Virus record (IMG/VR): IMGVR_UViG_3300022074_000022
DNA: 64,000 bases
Source of the DNA: an uncultured virus (IMG/VR IMGVR_UViG_3300022074_000022)
Taxonomy: Duplodnaviria > Heunggongvirae > Uroviricota > Caudoviricetes
Strand: one strand, 5' to 3'
The notes below the pieces were generated by a model. The model made no database searches. It saw nothing but the letters and a program-made list of their open reading frames with translations, and had not been told where the DNA came from. The position numbers were made by a program, and so were the translations under genes. Of this stretch, positions 37,150 to 53,135 are shown one piece after another (the first letter of the stretch is position 1; the number at the start of each line of letters is the position of its first letter).

Positions 37150-37218
37150 GCGGGGCCACTTGGCTGTGGGTAGCCGCTCCGGTTGTGTCAGGGCCGTGGT
37201 CCACCACGGGTAGCTGAC
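37150..37218 (-). promoter_or_regulatory. Tandem RNA hairpins with CUAC/CC internal loops in the scaffold leader
   Basis: GTCAG-CTAC-CCGTGG-TGGA-CCACGG-CC-CTGAC and GCGG-CTAC-CCAC-AGCCAA-GTGG-CC-CCGC. Confidence 0.7.
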
Positions 37219-40200
37219 GAATCCCTTTTGGGTTTTGGCATCGGTAACTCCATGTCTATGGGCTTATCCGGTTTTGGAAGCTTTGGAAAAGTCATAGGTT
37301 CAGTTATCGATGGGAAATCTTTGTTTTCTGCGTACCAGCTAATCATGCGATCAGCGCGGTTGCGCGTCTGTCTGGCTTTTTCGGACGACTTGCCTCGGAG
37401 GGGCATAATAATGCCGTCGTAAAGAGCGTCGTATGCGTCACCGCCCTGAAAGCCCTTTAAGAAACTGTGTCTAATACTTACGTGTCTGTTCTTACCCTTG
37501 TTACGGAAAGAACCTTCCTTTCCCTTACCCGGCTTAGTCTTGAAATTGCCAACGTAATATTCAGTGAACATAATCGCCTTATCTACAGGATTGTTCGGGG
37601 AAGGGATGTTGTAGCTTTTAAGAAATGCCTCAAACTCTTCGTGCTTTTTACGTTGAACAGTCAGATTTAGTTCTTCAAGAACCTTTTGATCTTTGATAGT
37701 CAAAGGGTCTTTTTTCAGTGCTGCACGGGCTGTCGCACCTGTTTTGGGGACAAACTTACCCTCTTTGTAGTTACCTACATATGGAGTGAGCTTAGACAGC
37801 ATAGTTGTGTTGAGTCCCATCTTCTCCAAATCAGTGATGGAGTGCTGGCCGATATCAAATCCTCGACCAATAGTCACGCCACTCGCATTCGTAGGAACGT
37901 AGCCTGTCTTCCTGTTATCTTCGGCTACTTGAAGGGCGCTTCGTACAGTCTCTTCGTATTGTGTTGGTGCAGGAAGAGGCGTCGAAGGCTTTGCAGCCTC
38001 AATAGGTGGGGCGGGTGGGGCTTGTGGCTTTTCAACAAATCCTTGATTTGTAGCCGGGGCACCGGATACATCAGGCTGTGACTCTTCGTTACCGAAGCCA
38101 AAAAGATTACTGATAAACCCGCCTATCTTGTAGCCAGCCTGTTGTGGGGCAGCTTCACTCTCTTCAATACGCTCCTGTGTCTCCTTTTTACCGCGATTGT
38201 TGATCTTGCGGAGACGGTCGTACCCAATGATGCGAGCCAACTGAGGCGGTATGACTACTTCGCCTCGGGACACTGCTACGTCCACTGCCTTTTCGTAGAC
38301 GGGCCTATCTACTTCAAAAATACCCTGTTCGCGAGCTACGGCGTATGCGTTGATAATCATCTTCTTGATATCTTCGCTACCGGCCTCTTCTACAGCCGCC
38401 GCGTTGATGACAAAGGTGCCTTCTTCAACTTGCATGTCCTTGTCGTCAGCCACCTTTTGACGGTCTGTAAAGCGCGACGGTGGGCCTTCTACAAAGCCAG
38501 CGGGTGTGGCCATAGCTTGACCGCCCTGCTGAAGTCCTACGCGACCACCTTTACGATATCCACCAAAGTTAAAGGAGTAATCCGCCGCGTCCTCGGAACC
38601 ACCAAAGCTCTCCATGATGTCAGCTTCAGCTTGAGCCGCTGAGTAGTCTTCACCTTCATCTTGATTACCGCCGCCTGATGGTTGTGGCATGGTGCTGGGG
38701 ATGTCCTCGGGCGCAGTAACAGGAAGAGACGCTGCCGCTTTCTTGTTATCTTCTTGCATACGGTTGAGTGCGTCACTAAGGAACGTAGCGTTACGGTGCT
38801 TTCCACTAACGGTGCCAAACGCACCCGCTTTAGTTTGGGCCTCTAAAAGTGCATCCTTGAACTGAGATTCTGTGATCCCGTACTGCGATCTTGCAGCGTC
38901 GTAAGCTGCGGCAAACTGTTCGTTCTTTGTGCTTGCAGCACCTGTTAGCTTGGCACCACCACCAAACGTTCCGATAAAATAACCCGTCTCAGAGACGTTG
39001 CCGCCAACACGGAAGGCTGTGTCTGCATCCATCAAGCCCTTCATACCGGTCTTTGACCATGTATTAGTATCGCTGTCGTACTCGTCTTTAAGAGTGCCGG
39101 AGATGAAGCCTTCTTTTGTAGCTTCAATGCCGAGCATCTGCTGCTGCGACATGTTTCCGAGATTACCAGTGTATATGTAGTCTCCGGGCTTACGACTGAT
39201 CATCATGTTGTTGACAGTCATCAGTGCGCCAGCTTTTCCACCAACAAGATTTACAGCGGCTGCATTCTTTGTGTGAAAATTCAGTGCGGCATCAAGTGCA
39301 AAGCCAGCTAGACCAGCGGGGCGAAGAGTAGTCTCTTTTCCAAAAGGAGCCGCTACCTGTTTTCCCATGAGAGTGCCAGCGGCTGTGGCAAGAGTCGGAC
39401 CCATCAGGGCAGAAACGGGAGCCACTAGCCCCTCTTTCTTTACATCCGCTTGGACGCCCGGACCTTTGATGGACCTCATATACTCAGTAACAAAGCTTTC
39501 TGAAAGGTCTTGTGTGCCAGCTTTTTCAAAAGTATCTATGTTAAGCTCAAAGTCACTAGAACCGTCACCGTACTGGAAAGAACGGACATCAAAAGCTGAC
39601 TGTCTGCCCTTCTGTCCAAACGTGTACTGTGTAGGAGAAACTATAGAGTCTTCCCCAGAGCCTACAGGACGAAGAACATCTTGACGAATGACGGTTTCTT
39701 TTTCATCTTCGTCCTCATCTTCATCTTCGTCTACCGTTGTAACATCGACTCCTGTTCCCAAACTGCCGCCGTAAAAATCCACAAAGCCAGAGGCATATTC
39801 TTCTGGAGTGTAAGTACGCTGAGATGTGAAAAATCCACTAGAAGAATTATCTCTGGTTATACCTAGATTAGAACCGTCACCAGCTATACCAAACATGAGT
39901 TGGAATTCAGGTGATTGGGCACTACCCCCTTCTGCCAGTCCTTGACGAAAGTTCGGAGACTCAGGATCAAGCTCAGTTTCAATCCGATTCATGCCCTCCG
40001 CGTAACCAGAGAAGTCATCTACCTCAGACGGCAGTTTCTTTTCTTCTTCCTCTTTACGTCTTTCGTAGTAAGTCGGAGGGGCGGGCTGGGCTTCTATGTA
40101 CGTATTCCGCTCTTGTTGTTTCTGGTACTCACGATTGACAAGACCTTCGCCCGTTGTGTCAGGGGTTCTATACATAGGGGCAGCTTCGCGAATTATTTTT

Positions 40201-40472
40201 CGAAGCAGTGTGTCGTCAAAAGTCTTACCCGCATACCTGTTAGGCTCTGACCCGACCATAGCGCGGGCCGTTCCGTCTGGGTTGAAAAACATATTTCGCT
40301 GCGTGAATACTTCTTCGGCAAGTTCTTTTTGAGTCTTTGTATAGCTATCGTATTCCTCACCCACAATCCGGCGAAGATCATCACTGGTTCGTCCGATTTC
40401 GTCCTTGAGCATCTCTATCCCTTCACGGGTATCTGCAGTACGTTCGGTTATTTGTGGGTTACGAATTGCCAT
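37188..40472 (-). CDS. Large virion protein with C-terminal pesticin-like muramidase domain
   Basis: GYVPTNASGVTIGRGFDIGQ; central GFVEGP...DD...EGTFVINAAAV. Confidence 0.7.
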   Translation of the reverse strand: MAIRNPQITERTADTREGIEMLKDEIGRTSDDLRRIVGEEYDSYTKTQKELAEEVFTQRNMFFNPDGTARAMVGSEPNRYAGKTFDDTLLRKIIREAAPMYRTPDTTGEGLVNREYQKQQERNTYIEAQPAPPTYYERRKEEEEKKLPSEVDDFSGYAEGMNRIETELDPESPNFRQGLAEGGSAQSPEFQLMFGIAGDGSNLGITRDNSSSGFFTSQRTYTPEEYASGFVDFYGGSLGTGVDVTTVDEDEDEDEDEKETVIRQDVLRPVGSGEDSIVSPTQYTFGQKGRQSAFDVRSFQYGDGSSDFELNIDTFEKAGTQDLSESFVTEYMRSIKGPGVQADVKKEGLVAPVSALMGPTLATAAGTLMGKQVAAPFGKETTLRPAGLAGFALDAALNFHTKNAAAVNLVGGKAGALMTVNNMMISRKPGDYIYTGNLGNMSQQQMLGIEATKEGFISGTLKDEYDSDTNTWSKTGMKGLMDADTAFRVGGNVSETGYFIGTFGGGAKLTGAASTKNEQFAAAYDAARSQYGITESQFKDALLEAQTKAGAFGTVSGKHRNATFLSDALNRMQEDNKKAAASLPVTAPEDIPSTMPQPSGGGNQDEGEDYSAAQAEADIMESFGGSEDAADYSFNFGGYRKGGRVGLQQGGQAMATPAGFVEGPPSRFTDRQKVADDKDMQVEEGTFVINAAAVEEAGSEDIKKMIINAYAVAREQGIFEVDRPVYEKAVDVAVSRGEVVIPPQLARIIGYDRLRKINNRGKKETQERIEESEAAPQQAGYKIGGFISNLFGFGNEESQPDVSGAPATNQGFVEKPQAPPAPPIEAAKPSTPLPAPTQYEETVRSALQVAEDNRKTGYVPTNASGVTIGRGFDIGQHSITDLEKMGLNTTMLSKLTPYVGNYKEGKFVPKTGATARAALKKDPLTIKDQKVLEELNLTVQRKKHEEFEAFLKSYNIPSPNNPVDKAIMFTEYYVGNFKTKPGKGKEGSFRNKGKNRHVSIRHSFLKGFQGGDAYDALYDGIIMPLRGKSSEKARQTRNRADRMISWYAENKDFPSITEPMTFPKLPKPDKPIDMELPMPKPKRDSSATRGGPRP

Positions 40473-42622: not shown

Positions 42623-42847
42623 TTAGTAGTCGCGTTCTTCAGCGAGACGCATGACAGCCGGATCGACAGCAGTTTTATTTTGCTGCTTCGGCATATCTTC
42701 CGTCAGAACACCTGTGACGGCACGAGTGTCAAACTCAAGCCCTTCACGATACAGCTTGTCGGCACCCATCTGATCGTCAACGGACGTTTCGTCCGAAGCC
42801 ATGATGTAGCCTTCGCCCATGTTCAGGTTCTGCATTCTTTCCTCCAT
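42623..42847 (-). CDS. Small acidic late protein
   Basis: 74-aa ORF filling the gap before portal. Confidence 0.65.
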   Translation of the reverse strand: MEERMQNLNMGEGYIMASDETSVDDQMGADKLYREGLEFDTRAVTGVLTEDMPKQQNKTAVDPAVMRLAEERDY

Positions 42848-44853
42848 TAAGGGTTAGGTATAGAGTCTTCTTCGACTTGTTGGTCTGCCGTTATCTGCGG
42901 ACCTGAATAATCTTGAGCGCGTATATTTCTAGCGCGATTTCTTCCGCTGATATTGCCGGTGCGTTCTCCAGATACAATTCCCGGAACAATCATTTCAGCG
43001 GCTACCGCCCCTACTCCACCGATAGCAGGGATAACGCCCCGCTCTCCCGGCTCACGTTCAATGCCAAAGAGGTCTGCAGTAGCCTGCATCCCCTTTTCAG
43101 CGGCGACATCGTAGGGGTCAACTTCATCTTCTTCCAGAAGCGCACGATCTATAAGCGCGCCTGCCAGATCGCCAAGAGGTCCCGGCGCAGCTTTTGCGCC
43201 TGTAGAGATAGTGGCCAGTGCGCCTGCAAGACCGTACTTAGCCAGTTTACCTCTAAGGCCGGAGGTCGGGGTCTCGTCAAGTGGGGGGTTGTCGATTAGC
43301 TCTTGTTCTGCAGCTATCTCGGCCCGCGCTTCTGCGGCAATTTTTTTATTATCTGCAAGCTGACGCTGGCGTCTGCGAATGGCCTCTGGATCAGTCTTGA
43401 TCGGACGCGCTAAACGCGCCGCCTCTTCAGCTTCTTTTTGTTCTTCAAGACGTCCAATGACAATCTCAAGCGACGTCTGTTTCTTCTTTTCTTCAAGCTT
43501 GATTGTCTGTCGCTGTTCTTTTGTGGGCCTCTTGTTCACTGTATTTGGTGCAGGGCCATCAAGAGAACCGATCTCAGTCGGCGTGTTAAAGACGACTTCG
43601 GCATCAACAATTCTAGGGGTAGTCACACCCCTGTTTACAAACAGCGCGTTGATGGTTCCGTGACCACCGTTGATAGCGTCTTTGTGAATAAGTGAATTGG
43701 TAATGGGTCCAATGCGCTTATCTGGGAGAGCGCCAGTATAGTTCTCTTCAAGAATGTCACCAGCGTTGTCTACACCAACACCAGCGTGACCCATCCACGC
43801 CTTTACAGCATCGCGTGGAAATTCGTACTCACGAAGAAGCTGCCGTGCAAGGATTTTACGAATGCTTTTGTGGCTTCCCTGTGCTTTTATGGGAAGCTGA
43901 TCCGCAAACCTTTCCTCTAAGAGAGGACGTACACGGGCATTCCAAAGGCGCTCAACACGAGTTTCAAACTTGAGTCTGTCACCCGCTCTGCCAGCAAAGA
44001 CATTCTTTTTGGATGGGTTCTCTCCCGGAAAGTCCTCGGCCACTCGTGCTTTAGCCTGTTCAACTTTAGCGAAAAGAAACTCGGCAAACTCTCCGGTGTA
44101 CGTAACTTCCGGACGAACCTTGTTGGCTTTCCGTACACCGCGAACTTCTGCGATCATAACACCGTCGCGTTCACCAAAGGTAATGTCGCCGATCTTGAGA
44201 CCGTCTTCACCAATGTTTGAGGCAACGCGCTGACCAGTGTACTTCTCGTAGTAAATATAGTCACGAGCATCTCTATCTACCTCGACCGTGACCATTTTCT
44301 GCTGTTTTTCGTCGTAAATCTCGTAACCCTCGACCCCAAGAGCTTCATCATACAAGGCGTCTAGGTCTTTTGAGAAAATCGTACCCTGCATAGGGTCGGT
44401 GTTACGAGATTGAACACCCACAAGATCGTACAAGGTTTGTGCGATACCGTCGGAACCAGCCAGCTTCGTTGGTACGTTATTTACTTTCGCTACTTTGTTC
44501 TGCGCGATAAATCTATCTTCAAACCAGCCCCACTGCTTCCACCGGTTTGTTCCGGATTCGCTTTTTATCGGATCAAGAGCTTCGTTGAATTCTTTTTTAT
44601 CGTAAATTTCATTGTATGGCAGATCGACATCAATACCCTCATCAATGAGATTAGAAATCAGATTGAGAGTGTTATTGTAATTGTCCTTGCCTTTGTCTTT
44701 TTTATCTGCGATGCTGTTGGCGATGTAAGACAGAGCTTCACGCACAGTGATTTGTCCCGACTGAGACTTTTCAACAAAAGCCGCTTGGGTCAGGTTCACT
44801 GCTTCTTTGAGACCGCGTGGACCTCTAGACTTTGTAGGAGGTGTGGTTGCCAT
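42847..44853 (-). CDS. Tyrosine recombinase-family protein with long C-terminal extension
   Basis: YTGQR...LKIGDI (box I), K, HKSIRK, WMGH, EENY (box II) in canonical order. Confidence 0.72.
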   Translation of the reverse strand: MATTPPTKSRGPRGLKEAVNLTQAAFVEKSQSGQITVREALSYIANSIADKKDKGKDNYNNTLNLISNLIDEGIDVDLPYNEIYDKKEFNEALDPIKSESGTNRWKQWGWFEDRFIAQNKVAKVNNVPTKLAGSDGIAQTLYDLVGVQSRNTDPMQGTIFSKDLDALYDEALGVEGYEIYDEKQQKMVTVEVDRDARDYIYYEKYTGQRVASNIGEDGLKIGDITFGERDGVMIAEVRGVRKANKVRPEVTYTGEFAEFLFAKVEQAKARVAEDFPGENPSKKNVFAGRAGDRLKFETRVERLWNARVRPLLEERFADQLPIKAQGSHKSIRKILARQLLREYEFPRDAVKAWMGHAGVGVDNAGDILEENYTGALPDKRIGPITNSLIHKDAINGGHGTINALFVNRGVTTPRIVDAEVVFNTPTEIGSLDGPAPNTVNKRPTKEQRQTIKLEEKKKQTSLEIVIGRLEEQKEAEEAARLARPIKTDPEAIRRRQRQLADNKKIAAEARAEIAAEQELIDNPPLDETPTSGLRGKLAKYGLAGALATISTGAKAAPGPLGDLAGALIDRALLEEDEVDPYDVAAEKGMQATADLFGIEREPGERGVIPAIGGVGAVAAEMIVPGIVSGERTGNISGRNRARNIRAQDYSGPQITADQQVEEDSIPNP

Positions 44854-46544
44854 TAGTATCCAAAGGTAGCGTCTTGAACCTGATAGACCTGATTCTTAAT
44901 CGCGCCAAGCTGTTGGTGAATAGATGCGTATCCGCTCATCCGCGTCATCATCATGTATCGGAGAGCGTCGTAAGCGTGATCTTCTGCTTTTGTGTCTACG
45001 TCTTCACTGTTCGACTTAGACAGCGGTATGCCTGCAAGCTGTTTGATGATATTCGAACAGGAAGAGAAAATACGCAAACGGGGTTCGCCGGAATACGGCT
45101 CCTTTGCAAGCCGACGATGAACCTCCATCTTTCCTTGAATTCTGTTTCTGTCAGAAGGAGTCCAACGAACTCCTTGACGCATCATTACCTCTGCGATAGA
45201 GGGACCGAAGCCTGTCTTGTTCCAACATGAGGAATCCAAAACAGTGTAGTGGGGGAGTGGGTCTAACTGTTCTGCTTCTAATATTTTATCTGCCAGCTCC
45301 TCTGCTGTCAAGTGTTTTTCGTATAATTCTCTGTATACCCAGATATTATTGTCCCAATCGATTGCGCCCCACAACACGCACGAAGGTGCAGCATATCCAT
45401 AGTCAGCAGCACGGATGCGAGGCCAATTGGTCGGCAACTCAAATGGCTCGACAACATGTCGGCTCCGTGAAAACTCGGGGAAGGCCGCTCCCTCCGCCAC
45501 GTCCCAATCCCCTTCAAGAAGTCTCTTCCGCTCGACTTCTGGGAGCGACCTGAGCATAGCCTCGTACTGGCCGTCTGCAAGCAGGTAGGGATTGTCGGTC
45601 AGCCTTGCCGGTACAAATTTGCGGTAGAACAGGGGCTGACCTGCTTTCTCGTGACCGTCAGGCCACATGAACGGTGTCATTGTATCTATATCGAAGGCAG
45701 GAAAAGGCTTGTTTGGTTCCACGTCGTCGATGTACATCTTCTTGACCCACCAACCACCCACTCCTCCGGGGTTGGCTGTGCAGCGCATGTACAAGTGCTG
45801 CTGGAGTTCATTATCAGTAGAACGAAGGCGAGAACGCAAGTAATCCCAGACATAGGGCGTAGGGTACTGAGTAATCTCATCAATGCCTATCCAGTTGAAT
45901 GCCTGACCTTGAAAGCGAGTTACATCTTTGTCCCGATCCAGATAGGTGAACCAGATCGTAGCACCAGACGGGAACACCCACGTAGACTTCGACTCACGAA
46001 ACTTTGCACCCGGAAAAGCCTTTGTGTAAAGCTGGCGGGACTTGTCAATCAGTTCAGTGAGTTCATCCAGTGTACGACGGAGAAGAAGACCACGATGATT
46101 AGGATTGTGACAGTAACGTAGCGGATCAGCAAGAAGTGCAAAGCTTTTTCCACCACCGGCTGCACCGCCGTAGAGTACATCTCGCTCACCCGCGCTAAGA
46201 AATTCTGTTTGCGGTCCTTCATTCGGCGAGAACACAACCTCGCTTTCACCGACAAGCTCCGAAACTGCGTCAGGTAAAGCATCCAAATCCCCAAGATCGA
46301 TTGTGGCAGAACCGGCTCCTGTAAGAGCTTTTTCCACTTTTCCCACTGTTTTTTCAAGTTCTCTTGCATATCTTCGCTTGTCTTCGGCCTGTTTGGTGGT
46401 TTTGGCTGCTCTTTTCTTAGCTGCGTTGACACGTTTCTGCGCTGCACGTCTTGCACGTTCTTTTGTAGACATCTGATATGTGTCTTTAGGCGCATTAGGG
46501 TCCTTTTTAGGCCTTCCGCGCCGCTTTGGAGTCTCTTCAGACAT
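44853..46544 (-). CDS. terL: Terminase large subunit with basic N-terminal extension
   Basis: YGGAAGGGKS, IGIDE, TANPGG, RLTDNPYL, DYG, EDHAYDALRY. Confidence 0.95.
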   Translation of the reverse strand: MSEETPKRRGRPKKDPNAPKDTYQMSTKERARRAAQKRVNAAKKRAAKTTKQAEDKRRYARELEKTVGKVEKALTGAGSATIDLGDLDALPDAVSELVGESEVVFSPNEGPQTEFLSAGERDVLYGGAAGGGKSFALLADPLRYCHNPNHRGLLLRRTLDELTELIDKSRQLYTKAFPGAKFRESKSTWVFPSGATIWFTYLDRDKDVTRFQGQAFNWIGIDEITQYPTPYVWDYLRSRLRSTDNELQQHLYMRCTANPGGVGGWWVKKMYIDDVEPNKPFPAFDIDTMTPFMWPDGHEKAGQPLFYRKFVPARLTDNPYLLADGQYEAMLRSLPEVERKRLLEGDWDVAEGAAFPEFSRSRHVVEPFELPTNWPRIRAADYGYAAPSCVLWGAIDWDNNIWVYRELYEKHLTAEELADKILEAEQLDPLPHYTVLDSSCWNKTGFGPSIAEVMMRQGVRWTPSDRNRIQGKMEVHRRLAKEPYSGEPRLRIFSSCSNIIKQLAGIPLSKSNSEDVDTKAEDHAYDALRYMMMTRMSGYASIHQQLGAIKNQVYQVQDATFGY

Positions 46545-46546: not shown

Positions 46547-46783
46547 TTACGGCTTTTCTGCGCTTCCTGAAGCTTTGCGACCCCTTACAGCCATCTTCAT
46601 ACCGTCGATGTTCTCATATTTCTGTGGTTCTTTGGTCTTTCCCTTTCCAAAAGCCCCCAGAGCATAAGCAGTGAGCATGATTGGACGCGGACCTATGCGT
46701 TGAAACGCCTCAGAGAAGCTCTTTGGCGGCTCTCCTGCGTTAAGATCAGCTTTTGTAAGTAGCTTTCTTTTCTCTTTACCCAT
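46547..46783 (-). CDS. Hypothetical late protein
   Basis: Between terS and terL; ends RGRKASGSAEKP. Confidence 0.6.
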   Translation of the reverse strand: MGKEKRKLLTKADLNAGEPPKSFSEAFQRIGPRPIMLTAYALGAFGKGKTKEPQKYENIDGMKMAVRGRKASGSAEKP

Positions 46784-47180
46784 CGATAATGACCTCGTTC
46801 TTTGGTGGAAGCAGCACGACTCCGTGAACTGCTGTTACGTTGTGGTTTACTTGATCTGGGGCCTTTGCACCTACACGATTAAGTAGTGATTCGGCAGCTT
46901 TGAGACGTAAATCATCACCTCGTTCGGGGGCGGGATTGTCTATTGTCGCTACAAGCCTGTTCGCAGCCTTTAGGGCGTTCATCGAAAGGATGTCTTTTGT
47001 GCGTTCTACGATCTCATCTGCTAAATGTTTACGTAACCACCCTGCAGAACCACGAGAATACCCTGCATCTACGGCTGCAGCAGTGACTTGACCGCCGTTT
47101 TCAAACAGTATGTCAAGGAATTTCTCTTGTTGAGGCGTAAGTTCACGCTCTCTTTTCCGCTGTTGAGGTAAAAGATTCAT
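46776..47180 (-). CDS. terS: Terminase small subunit
   Basis: LTPQQEKFL...AAVDAGYS HTH; AAESLLNRVG; VVLLPPK. Confidence 0.8.
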   Translation of the reverse strand: MNLLPQQRKRERELTPQQEKFLDILFENGGQVTAAAVDAGYSRGSAGWLRKHLADEIVERTKDILSMNALKAANRLVATIDNPAPERGDDLRLKAAESLLNRVGAKAPDQVNHNVTAVHGVVLLPPKNEVIIDG

Positions 47181-47297
47181 CGTTTATACCAGATATAGAG
47201 AGATGTAGGTCGATGTCCCACCGTAGCCACGCCTTTATCGTGTAAAAACAGTGAAGGTGGGAAGGTGTGCTAATGTGTGGAACGAACCTACGCCTAT

Positions 47298-47326
47298 ATT
47301 ATGGGTGTACGGCTTACTTTTGTCAA
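47298..47326 (-). promoter_or_regulatory. Late operon promoter
   Basis: TTGACA-17-CATAAT pointing at terS. Confidence 0.75.
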
Positions 47327-47344
47327 CAAAAAAAATTTTATGGC

Positions 47345-47373
47345 TTGACAGTTTTGAAATTCGACTGTATAGT
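47345..47373 (+). promoter_or_regulatory. Strong sigma70-like promoter, divergent from late promoter
   Basis: TTGACA-17-TATAGT. Confidence 0.8.
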
Positions 47374-47379
47374 AAGGGT

Positions 47380-47450
47380 ACTACCCGCCGGGGAATAACT
47401 ACTCCCACACCACAGATACATTGGGGCACTGTTTTGGTGCCCCCTTTTTT
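47380..47450 (+). ncRNA. Candidate small RNA of about 70 nt
   Basis: Bounded by consensus promoter and terminator; no ATG inside. Confidence 0.55.
47423..47450 (+). terminator. Rho-independent terminator
   Basis: GGGGCAC-TGTTTTG-GTGCCCC-CTTTTTT. Confidence 0.85.
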
Positions 47451-47809
47451 ATGTCTGGCGCACTGTTTTGCCGGGGCGGTATCGATTACTTTCAAAAAAT
47501 AAAATTACGGTCGAGATTACTAGCACATATACCGGTCCCCCGGGTGGCCCATGCGCGCCCCCGCGCGAGGCCCATTTTTTTCTCGGCGAGAATGGCTGCG
47601 GGCTGATCGGCAAAACAGACAACCCCTGAAACCAACAGGAAAGCCCGCCGGACGCATAAGCCGCGCCCGCCCGCCCGTGTATAGAGTTTGCCATGCCGTT
47701 AACTCATAGAGATGTCCGCCGAGATTAGGTGGCATAGCTCACCCCGAACAAAGCTATTCCGGATTTATTTAGCGATTACAGCCCGCCGGGATTAAACCGG
47801 CCCGCGCAT

Positions 47810-47843
47810 AAAAAAAGGCCCGCCGGACTAATCCAGACGGGCC
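47810..47843 (-). terminator. Terminator of leftward early genes
   Basis: GGCCCGTCTGGA-TTAG-TCCGGCGGGCC followed by T7. Confidence 0.8.
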
Positions 47844-47868
47844 AAGGCGGGAGGAAAAGGGTCGGACG

Positions 47869-48108
47869 TTAGGTGTCCAGAGGCGGCTTCACGGTCTCAA
47901 AGCGGTTAAGGCCGTGCTCATATGCGGCATAAGTCCGGGCAGCGTTCAGGATGTCCGGATAATCCCGCTGAAGTACTGCGAGGTGGTAGTCGTCCATCAT
48001 GGCAATCGAAGAATGCAGATTCTCTATGGCGTATTTGAGAGAATTGCGGCGGGTGTCTACCATGCCGGACTGGTCAAGGGCTTCTCTAAAAGAGGTTGGC
48101 GCGTTCAT
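47869..48108 (-). CDS. Hypothetical early protein
   Basis: GGAGAAAAC RBS; followed by terminator. Confidence 0.7.
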   Translation of the reverse strand: MNAPTSFREALDQSGMVDTRRNSLKYAIENLHSSIAMMDDYHLAVLQRDYPDILNAARTYAAYEHGLNRFETVKPPLDT

Positions 48109-48803: not shown

Positions 48804-49856
48804 TCATACAAGCGCCCCCACTGACACGGGCTGGCGCTCATAAGACGCCCACAGGTCCGAGGCAGTAAGGTCCCGGACAAGGTCTTCACGCTGGCGTTCA
48901 ACACGATGCGCTGCTGCGCCTGCTGTTGACGTCTTGCGCTCTTTCCCGTCTTCACCAATCCACGTTTGGTCGGTATGGGTCGACCAGTGCGTCAGGGCAT
49001 TGTATGCCGCCCACAGAGTCGGCCCAAGCTCGGGCAGTTCTTCCGTGAAGCGGTGAAGCAGATAGTTGAGGCGCTTAGAGTTGACCGCCGCTTTCTTGCC
49101 GGTTTGAGCCGCTAGGCTGTTATCCTTACAGATCGATTGTGACAAGAGGTCGGAAAAGTCGTTCAGCGACATGGGGCTTCGTGCCCACAGTTTCATCGCG
49201 TCTTTTGACTCATCCCAAAAGGTCAAGCCCGATATAGCTTTCCGGGTCATCGCCTCAGTATCGAGACCGGACGTGTGCTTGCGTTTCTGGTGATACGCCT
49301 TCGAACCACCGAAAACCAAAGTGTTGCGGCACAGGTCACGATAGGCCCCCGAAAACACCTGAAAGGCCCACGTCTTGTTGACGCTGTTGAAGATATCGAA
49401 CCGGCAGCGGACAAGGTCCCGCCCGTCGGCGACCGACTCTTTCATGTCGTTGAAAACGATAGTCCGATGAGCTTTGAGGCCATTTTCGAAAAGCCGGTCG
49501 ACAACCGTCACATTTTCCAGCGGCAGGGTGGACCGGTGAAGCTGCGCCGTCTGTTTAGCGAAAACCCTGTCGTGTGGCTCCAGCTTGTAATCGGCATTGA
49601 CCGGACAGGTCGGCATGACCGAACCGGTGGCTTCGTTATACAGCGCGACGAAACCCGGCATCCGCTCGGCCTCTTCAAACTCGACCTCAGCTAGTCCGGA
49701 CTGGCTCCACGGCACAACGGCCTCAATTGGAATCTTCCGGATTTTGCACATGTCGTCATAAAGAGACAGGTCGTCGATGCTGTCATGCTGATAGGTGATG
49801 GTCTCACCGTTCCGGATAACGCCGGTCGTTTCTTCGGTCTGAATAAGATCAAACAT
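48804..49856 (-). CDS. DUF932-like protein
   Basis: FNS...GAYRDLCRN...RKHT, TLWAAYNALTHWSTH; family recalled, not searched. Confidence 0.75.
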   Translation of the reverse strand: MFDLIQTEETTGVIRNGETITYQHDSIDDLSLYDDMCKIRKIPIEAVVPWSQSGLAEVEFEEAERMPGFVALYNEATGSVMPTCPVNADYKLEPHDRVFAKQTAQLHRSTLPLENVTVVDRLFENGLKAHRTIVFNDMKESVADGRDLVRCRFDIFNSVNKTWAFQVFSGAYRDLCRNTLVFGGSKAYHQKRKHTSGLDTEAMTRKAISGLTFWDESKDAMKLWARSPMSLNDFSDLLSQSICKDNSLAAQTGKKAAVNSKRLNYLLHRFTEELPELGPTLWAAYNALTHWSTHTDQTWIGEDGKERKTSTAGAAAHRVERQREDLVRDLTASDLWASYERQPVSVGALV

Positions 49857-50095
49857 GGTCGTTTTCTCCATTGGTTGTTGGCCGGTCAAAAGCGACCGGT
49901 CCCTGATTCTGGCACGGTTTCTGCAGGATGCAAAGGTTTTTTACCAGACAGGGAAAAAATGACCGGCTGGCCCCGTCGTCTCGCCGCCGATCCGATCCGC
50001 CCGCAAGTCCCGCCCCCGAACAAAAGACAGGAAACCATTAGCGAATCCCCGAGTATTTAGTGTCGCAGTGTTTGCCTGTTGGTGTCAGCCACTTG

Positions 50096-50713
50096 TCAAC
50101 TGATCCCGTGACGGTCACGCCAGACGCGCCAAGTGATCGCCTGTAATTGATAAGGCATGAGGCCAACACGTCGCGCCGCCTCTTCGTACGCGGCTTGAAG
50201 TGCGCGGTATTCACGGACGCCGATGTTTGTCCGGTCGTCAGTGAGGCCGACGCGCTCATCGTAGGCAATGTTTCGCGCGTGGCCGTCGATGGTCACGTTG
50301 AATTCGCCCATGATGTCCATAAAAAAGGACGTGATCTTTTGACCTTTCAGCATACGTTTTGCGCCGTCGTAGTCCGGACGCGCCGCCAAGATATCCCACG
50401 CTTTCGCCTTCATCTTGTTATAGGTCGAGACCTTCACGGAATCGATGCCGTCACCACGCAAGAAAGCGTCTATTAGTGTCGCCGCGTTTGTCACGTTCCG
50501 AGACCATTTGTTATTCGGTGAAAGCGCGGCGATGACTGCCACCACAATATAGACCGCGATGCCATACTTGGCCGCGATATCATGCGCCGCCTTTTGCGCG
50601 TCGGAGTACCACAACAACCCTTCCGCATGCTGCGTTTCGTCGGCGTCACGGTAAACGCTGGTGATGTTGTGAATCATTCTTTCGTGATCAACTAGCGTGG
50701 CCTGCTTTGTCAT
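50096..50713 (-). CDS. Conserved phage protein, possible HhH-GPD glycosylase-like fold
   Basis: WY...IAALSP...W..N, GQKITSF, VTIDGHA, LQAITW. Confidence 0.65.
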   Translation of the reverse strand: MTKQATLVDHERMIHNITSVYRDADETQHAEGLLWYSDAQKAAHDIAAKYGIAVYIVVAVIAALSPNNKWSRNVTNAATLIDAFLRGDGIDSVKVSTYNKMKAKAWDILAARPDYDGAKRMLKGQKITSFFMDIMGEFNVTIDGHARNIAYDERVGLTDDRTNIGVREYRALQAAYEEAARRVGLMPYQLQAITWRVWRDRHGIS

Positions 50714-50946
50714 GCGATTACCTCGCCGGTGTGAATCCAGACTGGCGCGTCGGTTTCAATCCATACGCGCGCACCACAAGAAAGCGGCTTGTCCGGTGAA
50801 TAAACAACAAGCGATAGCCCGTCAATTTCTGCCGCATAAGTATAGTGATTACTTTTGCTGGTCTTAACAGTAATCGGCGGGTTATGTTCTTTATTCTTTT
50901 TGTTGGCGCGGATGACGTGCTGATTTATGTGTATTCGTTTTTTCAT
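50710..50946 (-). CDS. Conserved small phage protein
   Basis: IHINQHVI...YSPDKPLSCGARVWIET. Confidence 0.8.
   Translation of the reverse strand: MKKRIHINQHVIRANKKNKEHNPPITVKTSKSNHYTYAAEIDGLSLVVYSPDKPLSCGARVWIETDAPVWIHTGEVIA
50811..50922 (+). repeat. 112-bp exact direct repeat, copy 2
   Basis: Identical to 1-112. Confidence 0.95.
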
Positions 50947-50965
50947 GATGTTTTCTCCTCATATG

Positions 50966-51003
50966 AAAAAGCCCCGGCAGATTATGGGTAATATCCGCCG
51001 GAG
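50966..51003 (-). terminator. Rho-independent terminator
   Basis: CTCCGGCGGAT...ATCTGCCGGGG-CTTTTT. Confidence 0.65.
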
Positions 51004-51170
51004 TCAATACGCGATATCTTCGCTTTCTGTTTTTTCAGCCAACAAGTCGGACAACGCAGCCCCCCGCCTTCATTCACCATCGCAGGCTCGCCGCAATCAT
51101 CGCACAGATACTCTGGCGATAGTGTCGTCGGCTTGTCACGCTTTTTAGTGTCGCGGCGCTTGTCAGCCAA
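50982..51170 (-). CDS. Double-CxxC zinc-ribbon protein (unit B)
   Basis: CDDC...CPTC; homolog of 170-352. Confidence 0.7.
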   Translation of the reverse strand: MADKRRDTKKRDKPTTLSPEYLCDDCGEPAMVNEGGGLRCPTCWLKKQKAKISRIDSGGYYP

Positions 51171-51333
51171 TGTCGTCAGGTTCACCCGGCTCGGCGTGAT
51201 CGTACTGCCACTTGAGTTGCAGTTCGTCGTAGTGTTCGACAACAGTCTCGCCGTGCTTATCCATGAATTCCCGACGCGTCATATACGATGCGTCTTCTTC
51301 CATTTCGATTAGCCAGTCAGATACTTTACCCAT
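51163..51333 (-). CDS. Conserved 56-aa protein (unit B)
   Basis: Homolog of 521-691. Confidence 0.8.
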   Translation of the reverse strand: MGKVSDWLIEMEEDASYMTRREFMDKHGETVVEHYDELQLKWQYDHAEPGEPDDIG

Positions 51334-51652
51334 CTCGCGTTCCTACCTTTGTCTCGTAGTGTTCAACATCAGCAACCACCTGATCGATCTTTGTGTATAT
51401 CTGATCAAGGTCGCTGTCCATCAGGTCTATGTCTTCTAAGGCGTGTTTTGCCTGTGTGAGGAAGGCACGGATCACCGTCGTCTGTGTGACCTTTGCACGT
51501 AACAGTTCACCGCCACCGTCGCAGTCGTGACAGTGATGGTATTCCTCGACAAGGTCGCCGCCCCGGATCGGATCGGGAACAGCCTGTTCGTACTCCTTCT
51601 TGCCGTAGCCGCCACACTCCCAACAGTGACAAGATTCGACGTGGTTTTCCAT
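51326..51652 (-). CDS. DnaJ-type zinc-finger protein (unit B)
   Basis: CWECGGYG, CHDCDGGG. Confidence 0.8.
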   Translation of the reverse strand: MENHVESCHCWECGGYGKKEYEQAVPDPIRGGDLVEEYHHCHDCDGGGELLRAKVTQTTVIRAFLTQAKHALEDIDLMDSDLDQIYTKIDQVVADVEHYETKVGTRDG

Positions 51653-51801
51653 CAGCAGTAGATCCTTTCCATGATGCCGTTGATCGCGTGCCACATGATC
51701 CACGCGATGCAAGCCATACAGGCGAGGCGTATCACGTTATCCATGAACGGGTCTTTCGCTGGGTCAGTCTCCATCCAGCATGTGAGGATTGTCTTAATCA
51801 T
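51652..51801 (-). CDS. 49-aa membrane protein (unit B)
   Basis: Homolog of 1010-1159. Confidence 0.75.
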   Translation of the reverse strand: MIKTILTCWMETDPAKDPFMDNVIRLACMACIAWIMWHAINGIMERIYC

Positions 51802-52075
51802 GTTCGCCCCCACTGCCTCGTCCCAAGCTACCGAAATACTGCGGCTTACGTTTTGCCGTTTCGAACACAGCCAGCGTGATAAAGATGCCAGCCAACAGGA
51901 TTGCGTGGACAAGCGCACTGATGCCGAACACGACAATCGATCCCATCCACGACGAAAACACGATACACCACATCCACGCAAGGACTTGCATGATCATGTG
52001 ACGTGTGTTCATGTCGGGGATGTTGGACAGCGGGTTCTTTGCGCTGTCCATCACCAGTTGATATAGCCTAGTCAT
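51794..52075 (-). CDS. Membrane protein (unit B)
   Basis: Homolog of 1336-1617. Confidence 0.8.
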   Translation of the reverse strand: MTRLYQLVMDSAKNPLSNIPDMNTRHMIMQVLAWMWCIVFSSWMGSIVVFGISALVHAILLAGIFITLAVFETAKRKPQYFGSLGRGSGGEHD

Positions 52076-52310
52076 CAGTCGGCACCTCTTCTTCGTACAC
52101 ATAGTCACGCCACCACATCTTTTTGCCCTCTTCGTCAACCGGCGGGGTGAACTTAAGCGCGTGGTGCAACAGATGTTGCAGATGCTCTAACTTGCCTACG
52201 TCGGACATCCAAACGTCGTGGCACTCGTGAATCGTGGTGATCATGTTACGCAGATCATTATGTGCCTTCAAAAGCTGTCGGCGGTCGTCGTCTTTTACGA
52301 TTACTTCCAT
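52068..52310 (-). CDS. Hypothetical protein (unit B only)
   Basis: AGGAG RBS; 80 aa. Confidence 0.7.
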   Translation of the reverse strand: MEVIVKDDDRRQLLKAHNDLRNMITTIHECHDVWMSDVGKLEHLQHLLHHALKFTPPVDEEGKKMWWRDYVYEEEVPTDD

Positions 52311-52577
52311 GTGTCAATCTCCTATGTGCTGACGTTGTCACGATCCCATACTAATCTGATAGTTCTTTTACGATTTGGAATACGATTAATGTATCCTCTG
52401 TCTTCAAGACCTACGACAAGTCTGTGTATGCCGGATTTAGAAGCTAAACCCAAAGCCTCTCGCATTTCGTCAAAAGACGGAGACACTTCCCCTTCGCTAC
52501 GGCGTTCTCGCAAAAAGTTAAGAAGCTCTTTCTGTTTCTTTGTAAGCCCATACCTGTTTACCATGTGTCAATCTCCT
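52307..52577 (-). repeat. 17-bp direct repeats (AGGAGATTGACACATGG) flanking the LexA-like gene
   Basis: 52307-52323 is identical to 52561-52577. Confidence 0.9.
52322..52564 (-). CDS. LexA N-terminal DNA-binding domain only
   Basis: [10 protein letters not shown]...[35 protein letters not shown]; no peptidase domain. Confidence 0.88.
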
Positions 52578-52621
52578 TTTTACAACATAACCCATACCGA
52601 TAACAAAAGCACCTGTCAAAC

Positions 52622-52657
52622 AAAAAAACGGGGCCAGTTCGAAAACCAGCCCCGCTT
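52622..52657 (-). terminator. Rho-independent terminator
   Basis: GCGGGGCTGGTT-TTCG-AACTGGCCCCGT plus T run. Confidence 0.85.
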
Positions 52658-52681
52658 GCAGTTTAGGGAGGAGAAAATCCC

Positions 52682-52963: not shown

Positions 52964-53135
52964 ATGCTTCGATGTAAATGTCGATAGCCTCTCTTATGAC
53001 ATCTGACACAGCGAACTGACCCAGAGAACTAAGCTGTCCCTGTTCTGCTATTTCAGATAGCTTCTCATACTGCTCGACCGTCATGAGTAGATTGTATGTT
53101 TTTGTAGGTTCATCAATCTTTGGTGGTCTTGGCAT
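52929..53135 (-). CDS. RHH DNA-binding protein (unit B)
   Basis: Homolog of 2473-2673. Confidence 0.72.
   Translation of the reverse strand: MPRPPKIDEPTKTYNLLMTVEQYEKLSEIAEQGQLSSLGQFAVSDVIREAIDIYIEAFEEEDDEVFQE

What the first reader, a model, noticed from the sequence alone, without database searches (positions are those of the whole stretch)
42847..44853. Tyrosine recombinase with an ejection-protein-like tail, coupled to TerL in the packaging operon
Seen: a 668-aa ORF between terL and the portal region, with its start overlapping the terL stop (TAATG). It has tyrosine-recombinase residues in order: TGQR, K, HKSIR, MGH, EENY. About 250 further residues follow: a charged coiled coil, then Gly/Ala-rich hydrophobic helices (KYGLAGALATISTG, IGGVGAVAAEMIVPG). 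Known: phage integrases normally lie by early or immunity genes and end soon after the catalytic Tyr; KxxR in place of HxxR occurs in some protelomerases and topoisomerase IB. Inference: this is a late-expressed, possibly virion-packaged recombinase that resolves concatemers or circularises DNA on entry, not a standard integrase. No other integrase was seen in unit A.
Basis: partly seen in the sequence, partly recalled or inferred. Interest (0 to 1): 0.8.

Follow-up and report, generated by a model that had tools for sequence, protein, structure and literature searches.

The report
Swappable tyrosine recombinase between terminase and portal
An abundant group of uncultured marine phages carries, wedged between its DNA-packaging enzyme and its head portal gene, a fast-changing DNA cutting-and-rejoining enzyme with a long extra tail, which suggests an unknown step in how these phages handle DNA.

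Summary
The ORF (42847-44853, minus strand, 668 aa) is real, under purifying selection, and overlaps both neighbours by TAATG. Alone it matches no Pfam, PHROG, NCBIfam or PDB entry. Its relatives place it in the tyrosine recombinase superfamily. R209, K245, R332 and H356 are invariant and Y372 is kept in 44 of 45 diverse relatives. A profile headed by this protein hits solved XerA, XerD, XerH and Tn1549 Int (best E 3.5e-8).

The window is an uncultured HMO-2011-type podophage. All 106 related contigs that span the terL-portal gap have one 522-851 aa ORF there. These fall into four recombinase families that barely resemble each other by sequence, all with a related tail ending in a G/N-F-L/I/V motif. 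Phages about 99% identical on both sides carry different families, swapped exactly at the start and stop codons. Cultured relatives (HMO-2011, CRP-738, CRP-235) lack the gene and have a canonical integrase elsewhere.

Virion packaging, cyclisation and integration are all untested. The exact-ORF swapping argues against a fixed target site elsewhere in the phage genome, such as 47180-47870. No prophage copies were found.

The parts
42847..44853 (-). Slot gene: 668-aa tyrosine-recombinase-like protein with a C-terminal tail (P0001)
   Evidence: The family is conserved. dN/dS against two relatives is 0.11-0.13. A profile headed by this protein hits solved Xer and Int recombinases.
44269..44853 (-). 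N-terminal domain, residues 1-195; presumed core-binding domain (inferred); invariant E112 and Q148
   Evidence: It is conserved across the family. The profile match to XerA chain 5hxy_A starts at profile position 80. hhalign of family 1 against family 3 covers 20-398. The boundary is approximate.
43618..44268 (-). Catalytic domain, residues 196-412, with R209 (44227-44229), K245 (44119-44121), R332 (43858-43860), H356 (43786-43788) and Y372 (43738-43740)
   Evidence: R209, K245, R332 and H356 are invariant and Y372 is present in 44 of 45 relatives. These residues align with Arg I, Lys, Arg II and His II of XerA and XerD. dN/dS for residues 151-410 is 0.04-0.09.
43264..43617 (-). Linker and charged helical stretch, residues 413-530
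   Evidence: Composition. It is variable in alignment A1.
42850..43263 (-). Gly/Ala-rich segments and C-terminal end, residues 531-668. In most relatives this region ends in a G/N/S-F-L/I/V motif. This protein has DSIPNP where close relatives have DGFIPNP.
   Evidence: The tail HMM hits all four slot families.
44853..46544 (-). Large terminase (terL); its stop overlaps the slot gene start; the C-terminus D-x-[TV]-F-G-Y is the same in every related locus listed
42623..42847 (-). 74-aa acidic ORF (17 Asp+Glu, 8 Lys+Arg). It follows the slot gene in every locus whose contig reaches it, and gave no match in the cultured phage collection.
40490..42613 (-). Portal protein
   Evidence: SU10_portal E 7.5e-29; phrog_332 and phrog_1216
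37188..40472 (-). 1094-aa protein with a lysozyme-like (Pesticin C-terminal) domain at 851-945. Probably an internal virion or ejection protein (inferred). It carries 5 GF[ILV] motifs.
   Evidence: Motif count: 5 observed, reached by 20 of 20,000 shuffles.
46776..47180 (-). Small terminase, first gene of the block
   Evidence: phrog_51 E 7e-7; weak Terminase_2 match
47298..47326 (-). Best sigma-70-like promoter match upstream of terS (TTGACA, 17 nt, CATAAT; 11 of 12)
   Evidence: The total number of promoter-like sites does not exceed shuffles, so this is a consensus match only.

Best explanation
WHAT IT IS (confidence about 0.9). The gene encodes a divergent but catalytically intact member of the tyrosine recombinase (Xer/integrase) superfamily. 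It has an N-terminal domain and a catalytic domain with the Arg-Lys-Arg-His-Tyr set, and it lacks the first His of HxxR. This is fused to a modular tail of about 260 residues. The gene is a fixed occupant of the terL-portal junction in a large uncultured clade of HMO-2011-type marine podophages. There it behaves as an exact-ORF cassette. Four recombinase families and many tail types are shuffled among nearly identical backbones.

HOW IT MOST LIKELY WORKS (inferred; about 0.4). The protein is made with the packaging and head proteins from the same tightly coupled gene block. The tail, with its conserved C-terminal Phe motif, docks it to the head or portal machinery. The enzyme then travels with the packaged genome, or sits at the portal, and acts on DNA at the start of the next infection by cyclisation, integration or another strand-exchange reaction. 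Whole ORFs are exchanged between otherwise identical phages. Its DNA target is therefore more likely to lie inside the cassette or in the host than at a fixed site elsewhere in the phage genome.

Shown: homology, conserved catalytic residues, synteny, coupling, cassette swapping, head-tail shuffling and purifying selection. Inferred: catalytic activity, late expression, virion association and the target.
For: Homology: R209, K245, R332 and H356 are invariant and Y372 is kept in 44 of 45 relatives. Profile A4, headed by P0001, hits solved tyrosine recombinases in 9 of 11 matches at E<=1: XerA-type 4a8e_A E 3.5e-8, XerA 5hxy_A 2.1e-7, Tn1549 Int 8.6e-6, XerD 8.3e-5 and 1.4e-4, XerH 1.4e-3. The Arg I, Lys, Arg II and His II columns are aligned. 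hhalign links family 1 to family 3 at 99.1% (E 9.5e-19), and families 3, 2 and 4 to each other at 94.5-95.8%. PF00589 matches 19 of 36 representatives of families 2-4, 2 of them above the cut-off. Integrase PHROGs match 8 of 12. Distant family 1 members reach 26.6 and 24 bits, and a six-frame search gives 26.3 bits inside the slot ORF. In the ESM Atlas, 23 of 30 named hits are Phage_integrase clusters.

Fixed place and coupling: no other gene order was seen in 57 loci. One ORF of 522-851 aa fills the gap in 106 of 106 loci. The terL stop to slot start spacing is -1 to +5 nt in 85 of 85 distinct loci.

Selection: dN/dS is 0.04-0.09 in residues 151-410 (mostly the catalytic domain) and 0.20-0.22 in the tail.

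Cassette behaviour: mean pairwise identity is 0.81 for TerL and 0.80 for portal, against 0.25 for the N-domain and 0.22 for the tail. The family label needs 22 changes on the TerL+portal tree, against a shuffled mean of 22.7. L029 and L252 are 99.6% and 98.3% identical on the two sides with no similarity across the ORF.

Tail as a separate module: 7 tail clusters hold 2 or more recombinase families, and tails of different families reach 97.5% identity. GF[ILVM] lies in the last 15 residues of 43 of 83 distinct proteins, against a shuffle mean of 0.45. The Phe is invariant in 26 of 26 proteins of families 2 and 4. The same motif is enriched in the neighbouring lysozyme-domain protein. The tail correlates best with portal (rho 0.30).

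Not an ordinary integrase context: the canonical int of this phage group lies upstream of the replication genes.
Against: P0001 alone matches no Pfam, PHROG, NCBIfam or PDB entry. Comparisons with lambda Int, Cre, TelK and the CRP integrases are not significant.

Nothing shows the protein in virions. The tail has no homology to known ejection proteins or to any other gene of the phage. Its hydrophobic stretch is only borderline. This protein and its closest relative lack the terminal Phe. The GF motif is not enriched in the protein annotated after the portal of CRP-738 (2 motifs; 499 of 5000 shuffles reach that count).

The tail-portal correlation is modest and is confounded by linkage. Promoter-like sites are no more frequent than in shuffles. 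The RNA evidence is a few contigs from an RNA library that can hold DNA. No target site was found: no long palindrome, no terminal repeats, no tRNA-like element, and no clear zone of suppressed synonymous change inside the ORF.
Confidence: 0.4

Rival explanations
1. It is an ordinary integrase for lysogeny that replaced the canonical int of the group. It is not virion-associated, and the tail serves regulation or oligomerisation. Its attP would have to lie inside its own ORF, as in SSV-type archaeal virus integrases (recalled).
For: The closest detectable relatives are Xer and integrase proteins. The clade has no other PF00589 gene (0 of 5 near-complete genomes). Cultured relatives that lack the slot gene have a canonical int, and CRP-3 integrates into a tRNA-Met gene (passages of PMC6918029). 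Integrase modules are commonly exchanged among related phages (general knowledge). One family 4 member weakly hits the archaeal phage integrase model PF16795.
Against: The gene sits inside the packaging and head block, with -1 to +5 nt between it and terL in 85 of 85 loci. No non-coding DNA adjoins it. The exact-ORF swap leaves no room for a flanking attP. No tRNA-like fragment is present in unit A. No relative was found in one genome each of 185,579 species, though this was a pattern-limited search. None of the other 54 metagenome contigs exceeds 52,826 bp, which is phage genome size. The longest contigs of the 74 other protein clusters are at most 54,505 bp. The long tail with its conserved terminal motif is not explained.
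Confidence: 0.22
2. It is a packaging-stage enzyme that works beside terminase at the portal and is not packaged. It would resolve multimers or process replication products into packageable units (Xer-like resolution). The C-terminal Phe motif would dock on the portal in the way the TerL C-terminus does.
For: It lies between terL and portal and is translationally coupled. The best solved matches are Xer-type resolvases. The TerL C-terminus D-x-[TV]-F-G-Y is the same in every related locus listed and in CRP-738 and CRP-235, and it resembles the acidic-x-G-F motif of the tails. That TerL C-termini bind portals in T3, T7 and lambda is recalled, not tested here.
Against: A site-specific resolvase needs a cognate site in the phage genome. 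Swapping unrelated recombinase families into 99% identical backbones would break such a pairing unless the site lies in the ORF. The genome already encodes a T7-type endonuclease I. Cultured relatives package without the gene. The motif likeness to TerL is three or four residues and could be chance.
Confidence: 0.13
3. It is an injected counter-defence or host-directed effector: a DNA breaking-rejoining enzyme that acts on host DNA or caps phage DNA ends, and that diversifies in an arms race with host sensors or inhibitors.
For: Divergence is extreme and allele-like between conserved neighbours. Head and tail shuffle independently. The catalytic residues are kept in all families despite the divergence.
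Against: No defence-related homology was seen. PADLOC was not searched. No precedent for a tyrosine recombinase in this role was found in the literature searches. Hypervariability is equally expected for integrases.
Confidence: 0.1
4. It is a selfish recombinase cassette that has invaded the terL-portal junction and gives the phage no benefit.
For: It is absent from cultured relatives, where terL abuts portal. It is exchanged as a discrete unit.
Against: It is never missing within the clade: 106 of 106 loci carry one full-length ORF. It is under purifying selection. It has no flanking repeats or spare DNA, and its start and stop are welded to the neighbours. The tail co-varies somewhat with portal.
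Confidence: 0.05

Closest known systems
Xer-type tyrosine recombinases (archaeal XerA 4a8e and 5hxy; XerD 1a0p; XerH 5jjv)
   Same: These are the best solved-structure sequence matches of the slot-family profile (E 3.5e-8 to 1.4e-3). They share Arg I in a TG-x-R context, the Lys of the beta hairpin, Arg II, G-H and a downstream Tyr, plus an N-terminal domain (the match to 5hxy starts at profile position 80).
   Different: Xer proteins are about 290-360 aa with no tail. They keep the first His of HxxR, are conserved housekeeping enzymes acting at dif-like sites, and are not encoded in phage head modules. Here the first His is absent. In families 2 and 4 the second His is Arg. The His-to-Tyr spacing in this protein is 16, against 10 in distant relatives.
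Tn1549/Tn916-type and phage integrases (PF00589, phrog_1, phrog_216; PDB 6en0, 3nkh)
   Same: They match slot families 2-4 directly and the joint profile.
   Different: No arm-binding or att context was found. P0001 itself does not reach any of these models. The gene position and the tail are unlike known integrases.
Canonical integrase of HMO-2011-type phages (CRP-3, CRP-738, CRP-235, HMO-2011)
   Same: Same phage group and same enzyme superfamily.
   Different: The canonical int is 354-374 aa and lies upstream of the replication module (PMC9038755 and PMC6918029 passages). Profile comparisons show no specific kinship. The two genes were not seen together: there was no PF00589 hit outside the slot ORF in 11 related records, and no slot gene in 3 cultured genomes or in the phage collection.
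Cre of phage P1 (cyclisation recombinase)
   Same: A tyrosine recombinase that can cyclise terminally redundant incoming phage DNA. This is a functional analogy and is recalled.
   Different: Cre is 343 aa, is not in the head operon, is not known to be packaged, and has a fixed lox site. The sequence comparison is not significant.
Protelomerase TelK/TelN
   Same: Similar overall length (TelK is 640 aa) and the same superfamily.
   Different: There is no specific similarity, no large palindrome in unit A and no inverted terminal sequences.
Virion-packaged DNA enzymes and ejection proteins (poxvirus topoisomerase IB, retroviral integrase, N4 virion RNA polymerase, P22 and T7 ejection proteins); all recalled
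   Same: The idea of an enzyme delivered with the genome. Ejection proteins are described as mosaically conserved (abstract of PMC8954989, seen in the listing).
   Different: No homology to any of them was detected, and virion presence is untested.

Membership tests
Tyrosine recombinase superfamily (PF00589-type catalytic domain) | Arg I in a T/S-G-x-R context | tested here: met
   R209 is invariant in 45 of 45 rows of A2 and 42 of 42 of A4. It aligns with the Arg of a-G-L-R in XerA.
Tyrosine recombinase superfamily (PF00589-type catalytic domain) | Catalytic Lys on the beta hairpin | tested here: met
   K245 is invariant in family 1 and present in at least 90% of rows across four families. 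It aligns with the G-G-K of XerA.
Tyrosine recombinase superfamily (PF00589-type catalytic domain) | First His of the HxxR box | tested here: not met
   Position 329 is K, S, T, A or E, and H328 is not conserved. This His is known to be replaced in some subfamilies (recalled), so it does not exclude membership.
Tyrosine recombinase superfamily (PF00589-type catalytic domain) | Arg II | tested here: met
   R332 is invariant in A2 and A4. It aligns with the L-R-H of XerA.
Tyrosine recombinase superfamily (PF00589-type catalytic domain) | His II (or Trp) before the nucleophile | tested here: met
   H356 is invariant in family 1 and aligns with the L-G-H of XerA. In slot families 2 and 4 this position is an invariant Arg.
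Tyrosine recombinase superfamily (PF00589-type catalytic domain) | Tyr nucleophile about 9-10 residues after His II | tested here: met
   Y372 is present in 44 of 45 rows. The spacing is 16 here and 10 in distant members. The Tyr is present in at least 90% of families 2 and 4.
Tyrosine recombinase superfamily (PF00589-type catalytic domain) | Significant sequence match to the family model | tested here: inconclusive
   P0001 alone gives none. The family profile gives E 3.5e-8 to XerA. Slot relatives pass the Pfam cut-off in 2 of 36 cases, and family 1 members reach at best 26.6 bits against a cut-off of 27.1.
Tyrosine recombinase superfamily (PF00589-type catalytic domain) | The fold itself, with a clustered active site | not testable with these tools
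Temperate-phage integrase (functional class) | attP next to the gene; prophages flanked by attL and attR in host genomes | tested here: not met
   There is no flanking non-coding DNA and no tRNA-like element. No copies were found in genome contigs. Contigs never exceed phage size. The searches are pattern-limited, so absence is not proven.
Protelomerase (TelK/TelN) | Specific similarity to Tel proteins; large palindromic target or inverted genome ends | tested here: not met
   hhalign and hmmsearch against TelK are not significant. The longest near-palindromes have arms of 13-21 nt at 71-92%. There are no inverted ends.
Topoisomerase IB | Lys in place of the first His; relaxation without site specificity | not tested
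   No topoisomerase IB sequence was in hand. K329 is present here but not conserved.
Podophage internal virion or ejection protein | Presence in virions; homology to known ejection proteins | not testable with these tools
   There are no proteomics data. No PHROG or Pfam match was found for the tail, and the Atlas gave no usable hit. Only the gene position and a shared short motif with the neighbouring lysozyme-domain protein point this way.

The most novel reading that the evidence does not exclude
These abundant marine phages deliver a ready-made tyrosine recombinase with their DNA. The tail would load the enzyme into the head through the portal or core machinery. After ejection it would recombine the incoming genome, integrating or cyclising it, without new gene expression. 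That would be a phage counterpart of the retroviral integrase or the poxvirus topoisomerase. The exact-ORF cassette would be a self-contained specificity module, with its own site inside the ORF or in the host, kept polymorphic in the population. HMO-2011-type subgroups now called obligately lytic would then have a hidden way of interacting with host chromosomes.
Probability: 0.3. Interest if true: 0.9.

Novelty: new variant of a known kind. Interest (0 to 1): 0.74.

Why it matters
HMO-2011-type phages are described as one of the dominant marine viral groups. Their subgroups IV-X are said to have no identifiable lysogeny genes (passages of PMC9038755). That paper's orthologue table lists a 'phage integrase' only for subgroups I and III.

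This report shows a large uncultured clade of that type in which every genome carries a tyrosine recombinase in an unexpected place, with an unexpected tail. Unrelated-looking versions are exchanged exactly at the start and stop codons between near-identical phages. Such sharp, balanced polymorphism inside the most conserved module of a phage points to strong selection on an unknown DNA transaction. It makes several questions directly testable. Is the enzyme in the virion? What DNA does it cut? Are these phages really strictly lytic? What does the conserved C-terminal Phe motif bind? It also gives a natural set of four diverged recombinase families on one backbone for specificity studies.

Tried and rejected
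- Complex: complex prediction (tail with portal) was unavailable.
- Direct comparisons of the family with single lambda Int and Cre, with a 25-sequence lambda Int family alignment (P 0.002-0.08) and with CRP integrases, Cre and TelK were not significant. The alignment nevertheless put R209, R332 and H356 on lambda R212, R311 and H333.
- A profile search of the 5.8-billion-protein set with A2 brought no bridging integrases.
- Two viral-contig scans seeded with lambda Int and Cre returned only near-identical copies and were wasted.
- Profile A2 against PDB gave only coiled-coil noise from the tail.
- L243 alone against PDB gave nothing, and NCBIfam gave nothing useful.
- The Atlas search with the tail gave no usable hit.
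- The tail HMM and tblastn of 83 tails against the rest of the loci found no second copy of the tail.
- The search for a cis site found no long palindrome, no terminal direct or inverted repeats, no Rfam or tRNA-like match and no significant zone of suppressed synonymous change in the ORF (best 12 of 15 codons against a 38% background, with effectively three sequences).
- The intergenic region 47181-47868 is conserved only in close relatives and looks regulatory.
- RNA evidence: exact contigs at 43095-43260 and 44586-44881 in an oligo-dT RNA library. DNA can be present in such a library, and the second contig has only 28 nt on the terL side, so this is not counted as proof of transcription.
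- Longer, shorter, split or fused forms of the protein were not searched, because the cap on the search for homologous proteins was reached.
- The six-frame PF00589 search of the window's own contig was not possible.
- Earlier findings of this scan: nothing was on record.
Full report
THE OBJECT. The ORF lies at 42847..44853 on the minus strand and encodes 668 aa (P0001). Its ATG shares one base with the terL stop (TAATG). Its own stop shares one base with the ATG of a 74-aa ORF (TAATG). Upstream are the small terminase, a 78-aa ORF and the large terminase (Terminase_6N E 7.2e-9; phrog_979 E 3e-60). Downstream are the 74-aa ORF, the portal (SU10_portal E 7.5e-29) and a 1094-aa protein with a lysozyme-like domain.

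THE GENOME. The window holds one complete genome of about 50.8 kb (unit A, 1-50810) followed by the first 13 kb of a related one. The two align at an offset of about 50.6 kb with 72-96% identity. Unit A has no terminal direct or inverted repeats, and its first bases lie inside a minus-strand ORF, so it looks like a circularly permuted assembly. The gene content matches HMO-2011-type phages: DnaB-like helicase, a split family A polymerase with a DnaJ-type zinc motif, T7-type endonuclease I, MazG, ribonucleotide reductase, SU10-type portal and adaptor, and a collagen-like fibre. This agrees with the description in passages of PMC9038755. The nearest cultured TerL proteins, from HMO-2011-type roseophages, pelagiphages and HMO-2011 itself, are only 47-58% identical.

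THE PROTEIN ALONE IS AN ORPHAN; ITS FAMILY IS NOT. P0001 matches nothing in Pfam, PHROGs, NCBIfam or PDB sequences, and nothing in 50,697 phage records by tblastn. It has 74 relatives at the 90% cluster level, none with a Pfam domain. It has only 33 representatives among 1.84 billion proteins clustered at 50%. In an alignment of 45 diverse members the invariant residues are E112, Q148, T206, R209, K245, R247, F286, P321, R332 and H356. Y372 is present in 44 of 45 rows. The spacings fit the Arg-Lys-Arg-His-Tyr set of tyrosine recombinases: R209 to R332 is 123 residues, R332 to H356 is 24, and H356 to Y372 is 16 here and 10 in distant members. Two distant members gave weak, nearly full-length PF00589 matches (E 0.007 and 0.016). 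In the ESM Atlas, 23 of 30 named hits for residues 140-420 were Phage_integrase clusters at a score of 0.97.

THE DECISIVE LINK CAME FROM THE NEIGHBOURHOOD. All 57 viral contigs found with the family keep the order terS-terL-slot gene-74-aa ORF-portal wherever the contig reaches. I then seeded with the portal instead (80 loci, portal 71-94% identical). In all 106 loci that contain both the terL end and the portal start, a single ORF of 522-851 aa fills the gap. By BLAST of their N-terminal parts these ORFs fall into four groups of 66, 22, 12 and 6 loci. The first group is the P0001 family. The others do not hit its core HMM, or hit it only weakly, but all share hits to its tail HMM.

Of 36 representatives of groups 2-4, 19 match PF00589 at E<=0.05. 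Two are above the curated cut-off (36.5 and 29.5 bits), one more matches PF16795, and 16 match neither. Integrase PHROGs match 8 of 12 representatives, down to E 3e-15, and none of 3 family 1 members. Profile-profile comparison joins family 1 to family 3 at 99.1% probability (E 9.5e-19 over 336 columns). It joins families 3, 2 and 4 to one another at 94.5-95.8%. Distant family 1 members reach 26.6 and 24 bits on PF00589 (5 of 14 hit, none over the 27.1 cut-off). A six-frame search of one record rings inside its slot ORF at 26.3 bits.

A profile of all four families with P0001 as first row hits solved tyrosine recombinases in 9 of its 11 matches. These are XerA-type 4a8e_A at E 3.5e-8, XerA 5hxy_A at 2.1e-7 (starting at profile position 80, so including the N-terminal domain), Tn1549 Int at 8.6e-6, XerD at 8.3e-5 and 1.4e-4, and XerH at 1.4e-3. 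The printed alignments put the family's R209, K245, R332 and G-H356 columns on the corresponding motifs of XerA. Across the four families R209 and R332 are invariant and K245 is kept in at least 90% of rows. In families 2 and 4 the second His is an invariant Arg. I therefore accept the enzyme class without a model.

WHAT SPEAKS AGAINST CLOSER ASSIGNMENTS. Comparisons with lambda Int (alone or as a 25-member family), Cre, TelK and the canonical integrases of CRP-738 and CRP-235 are not significant. Unit A has no long palindrome and no inverted ends, so nothing points to a protelomerase. No topoisomerase IB sequence was available to compare.

A FIXED SLOT WITH SWAPPABLE CONTENT. The distance from the terL stop to the slot start is -1 to +5 nt in 85 of 85 distinct loci, whatever the family. 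In 56 distinct loci the mean pairwise identity is 0.81 for TerL, 0.80 for portal and 0.65 for the 74-aa protein, but 0.25 for the recombinase part and 0.22 for the tail. On a TerL+portal tree the family label needs 22 changes. The least possible is 3, and the shuffled mean is 22.7, with 83 of 200 shuffles as low. The family is therefore distributed as if at random with respect to the backbone.

Pairwise DNA comparison shows why. L029 (family 1) and L252 (family 2) are 99.6% identical up to the slot start codon. They have no detectable similarity across the whole ORF, and they are 98.3% identical from the stop codon on. L048/L296 and L245/L271 behave the same way, L239/L280 share only the last 26 nt, and L257/L263 and L050/L247 share the last 150-200 nt of the tail.

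Heads and tails are also shuffled against each other. The 83 distinct proteins have 30 tail clusters. Seven of these contain two or more recombinase families, and the largest contains all four. A family 2 tail and a family 1 tail are 97.5% identical over 120 residues. The correlation of head identity with tail identity is 0.11.

The gene is nevertheless constrained. Against two relatives, dN/dS is 0.11-0.13 overall, 0.04-0.09 in residues 151-410 (mostly the catalytic domain) and 0.20-0.22 in the tail. This compares with 0.03-0.05 for terL and portal.

THE TAIL. It consists of a charged helical stretch, Gly/Ala-rich moderately hydrophobic segments and an acidic end. Its one strongly conserved feature is a short motif near the C-terminus, G/N/S-F-L/I/V, which is often duplicated. 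GF[ILVM] lies in the last 15 residues of 43 of 83 distinct proteins, against a shuffle mean of 0.45 and a maximum of 3. Many of the rest end in N-F-L or S-F-L. The Phe is invariant in 26 of 26 proteins of families 2 and 4, on a par with the catalytic residues. P0001 and its nearest relative have lost the Phe (DSIPNP against DGFIPNP).

The neighbouring 1094-aa lysozyme-domain protein carries five GF[ILV] motifs in similar contexts, a count reached by 20 of 20,000 shuffles. The protein annotated after the portal in CRP-738, which lacks the slot gene, is not enriched. TerL in every related locus listed, and in CRP-738 and CRP-235, ends in D-x-[TV]-F-G-Y. The likeness of this to the tail motif is an observation only. 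The tail has no other copy in the phage and no hit in any library.

LIFESTYLE CLUES. Cultured relatives (HMO-2011, CRP-738, CRP-235) have terL directly next to portal. CRP-738 and CRP-235 carry a canonical integrase of 354-374 aa at the left end. CRP-3 integrates into a tRNA-Met gene (passages of PMC6918029). PMC9038755 states that subgroups IV-X have no identifiable lysogeny genes. [quoted passage not shown]

In the slot-bearing clade no PF00589 match lies outside the slot ORF in 11 related records. I found no sign of prophages. There was no relative of the family or of this TerL in one genome each of 185,579 species, although these searches rest on a few exact peptide patterns. None of the other 54 metagenome contigs is longer than 52,826 bp. 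No other protein cluster has a contig above 54,505 bp. There is no tRNA gene and no Rfam match in unit A. The stretch occurs in marine, seawater and viral metagenomes of 14 coded studies.

READING. The enzyme class is settled as far as sequence can settle it. All five catalytic positions are kept across four families that have otherwise diverged beyond BLAST recognition, which argues for a working enzyme. The constant position, the welded junctions to terL and to the next gene, and a tail that is modular yet ends in an invariant motif argue that the protein is part of the head and packaging programme. This is unlike the early lysogeny gene of this phage group. The exact-ORF exchange between near-identical backbones is the most informative new fact. 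A recombinase that needed a cognate site elsewhere in the phage genome could not be swapped so freely. Its target should therefore lie within the cassette, in the host, or be recognised by structure.

My best single account is an enzyme docked by its tail to the head machinery and delivered with, or acting on, the packaged genome. This remains an inference (about 0.4). An ordinary integrase with an internal attP (0.22), a packaging-stage resolvase (0.13), an injected host-directed effector (0.10) and a selfish cassette (0.05) remain open.

LITERATURE. Seven full-text searches and the passages and supplement named above turned up no description of a tyrosine recombinase in the terL-portal junction of these or other phages, and none of a virion-packaged phage recombinase. 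The library does not hold most subscription journals, so this is not proof that none exists.

Noticed in passing
window 1-50810 and 50811-64000: The window is one whole phage genome followed by the first 13 kb of a second, related genome (72-96% identical, offset about 50.6 kb; the first 147 nt are 96% identical). Its contig (L304) is 75,512 bp, longer than any other contig of the family. This is probably a chimeric or concatemer-like assembly of two strains joined through the shared stretch.
   Followed up: partly
window 37188-40472 (-): A 1094-aa low-complexity protein right after the portal has a Pesticin/T4-lysozyme-like domain at residues 851-945 and five GF[ILV] motifs (20 of 20,000 shuffles reach five). 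It is probably an internal virion protein with a cell-wall hydrolase.
   Followed up: partly
window 42623-42847 (-): A 74-aa acidic ORF (17 Asp+Glu, 8 Lys+Arg) accompanies the slot gene wherever the contig reaches it. It gave no match in the cultured phage collection. It is far more conserved (mean identity 0.65) than the slot protein, and its identity hardly tracks either part of that protein (rho 0.04 and 0.12).
   Followed up: partly
window 44853-44873 (-), TerL C-terminus: TerL ends in D-x-[TV]-F-G-Y in every related locus listed, and in CRP-738 and CRP-235. It resembles the acidic-x-G-F motif at the end of the slot-protein tails.
   Followed up: partly
loci L243, L252, L226, L254 and others (slot families 2 and 4): In two of the four slot recombinase families the second catalytic His is replaced by an invariant Arg (G-R or W-R before the Tyr). 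I do not recall this as a usual substitution for this superfamily.
   Followed up: partly
window 25532-25747 (-), in ORF 25060-26340: There are 18 overlapping copies of a 9-nt period that encode a collagen-like Gly-X-Y run (Pfam Collagen E 6e-9) in a probable fibre protein. It is followed by a tail assembly chaperone domain ORF and a 2OG-Fe(II) oxygenase ORF (24099-24656).
   Followed up: no
window 19079-19276 (-), in the 948-aa ORF 18563-21409: Four tandem 48-nt (16-aa) repeats, two of them identical, lie inside a large protein with no Pfam match. The next ORF (13775-18559, 1594 aa) also has no match.
   Followed up: no
window 47181-47868: A non-coding stretch of about 690 nt lies upstream of terS. 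It has several GC-rich hairpins followed by T runs on both strands, and the best promoter-like site of the region (47326-47298). It is conserved only in close relatives (82-85%).
   Followed up: partly
window 48804-50713 (-): DUF932 (E 2e-15) and DUF7178 (E 4.6e-45) proteins lie upstream of the packaging block. Their role is unknown.
   Followed up: no
some family 1 relatives (P0026, P0027, P0030, P0063 and others): Some slot proteins carry an extra N-terminal extension of 130-240 residues, of at least two types, with no Pfam match.
   Followed up: no
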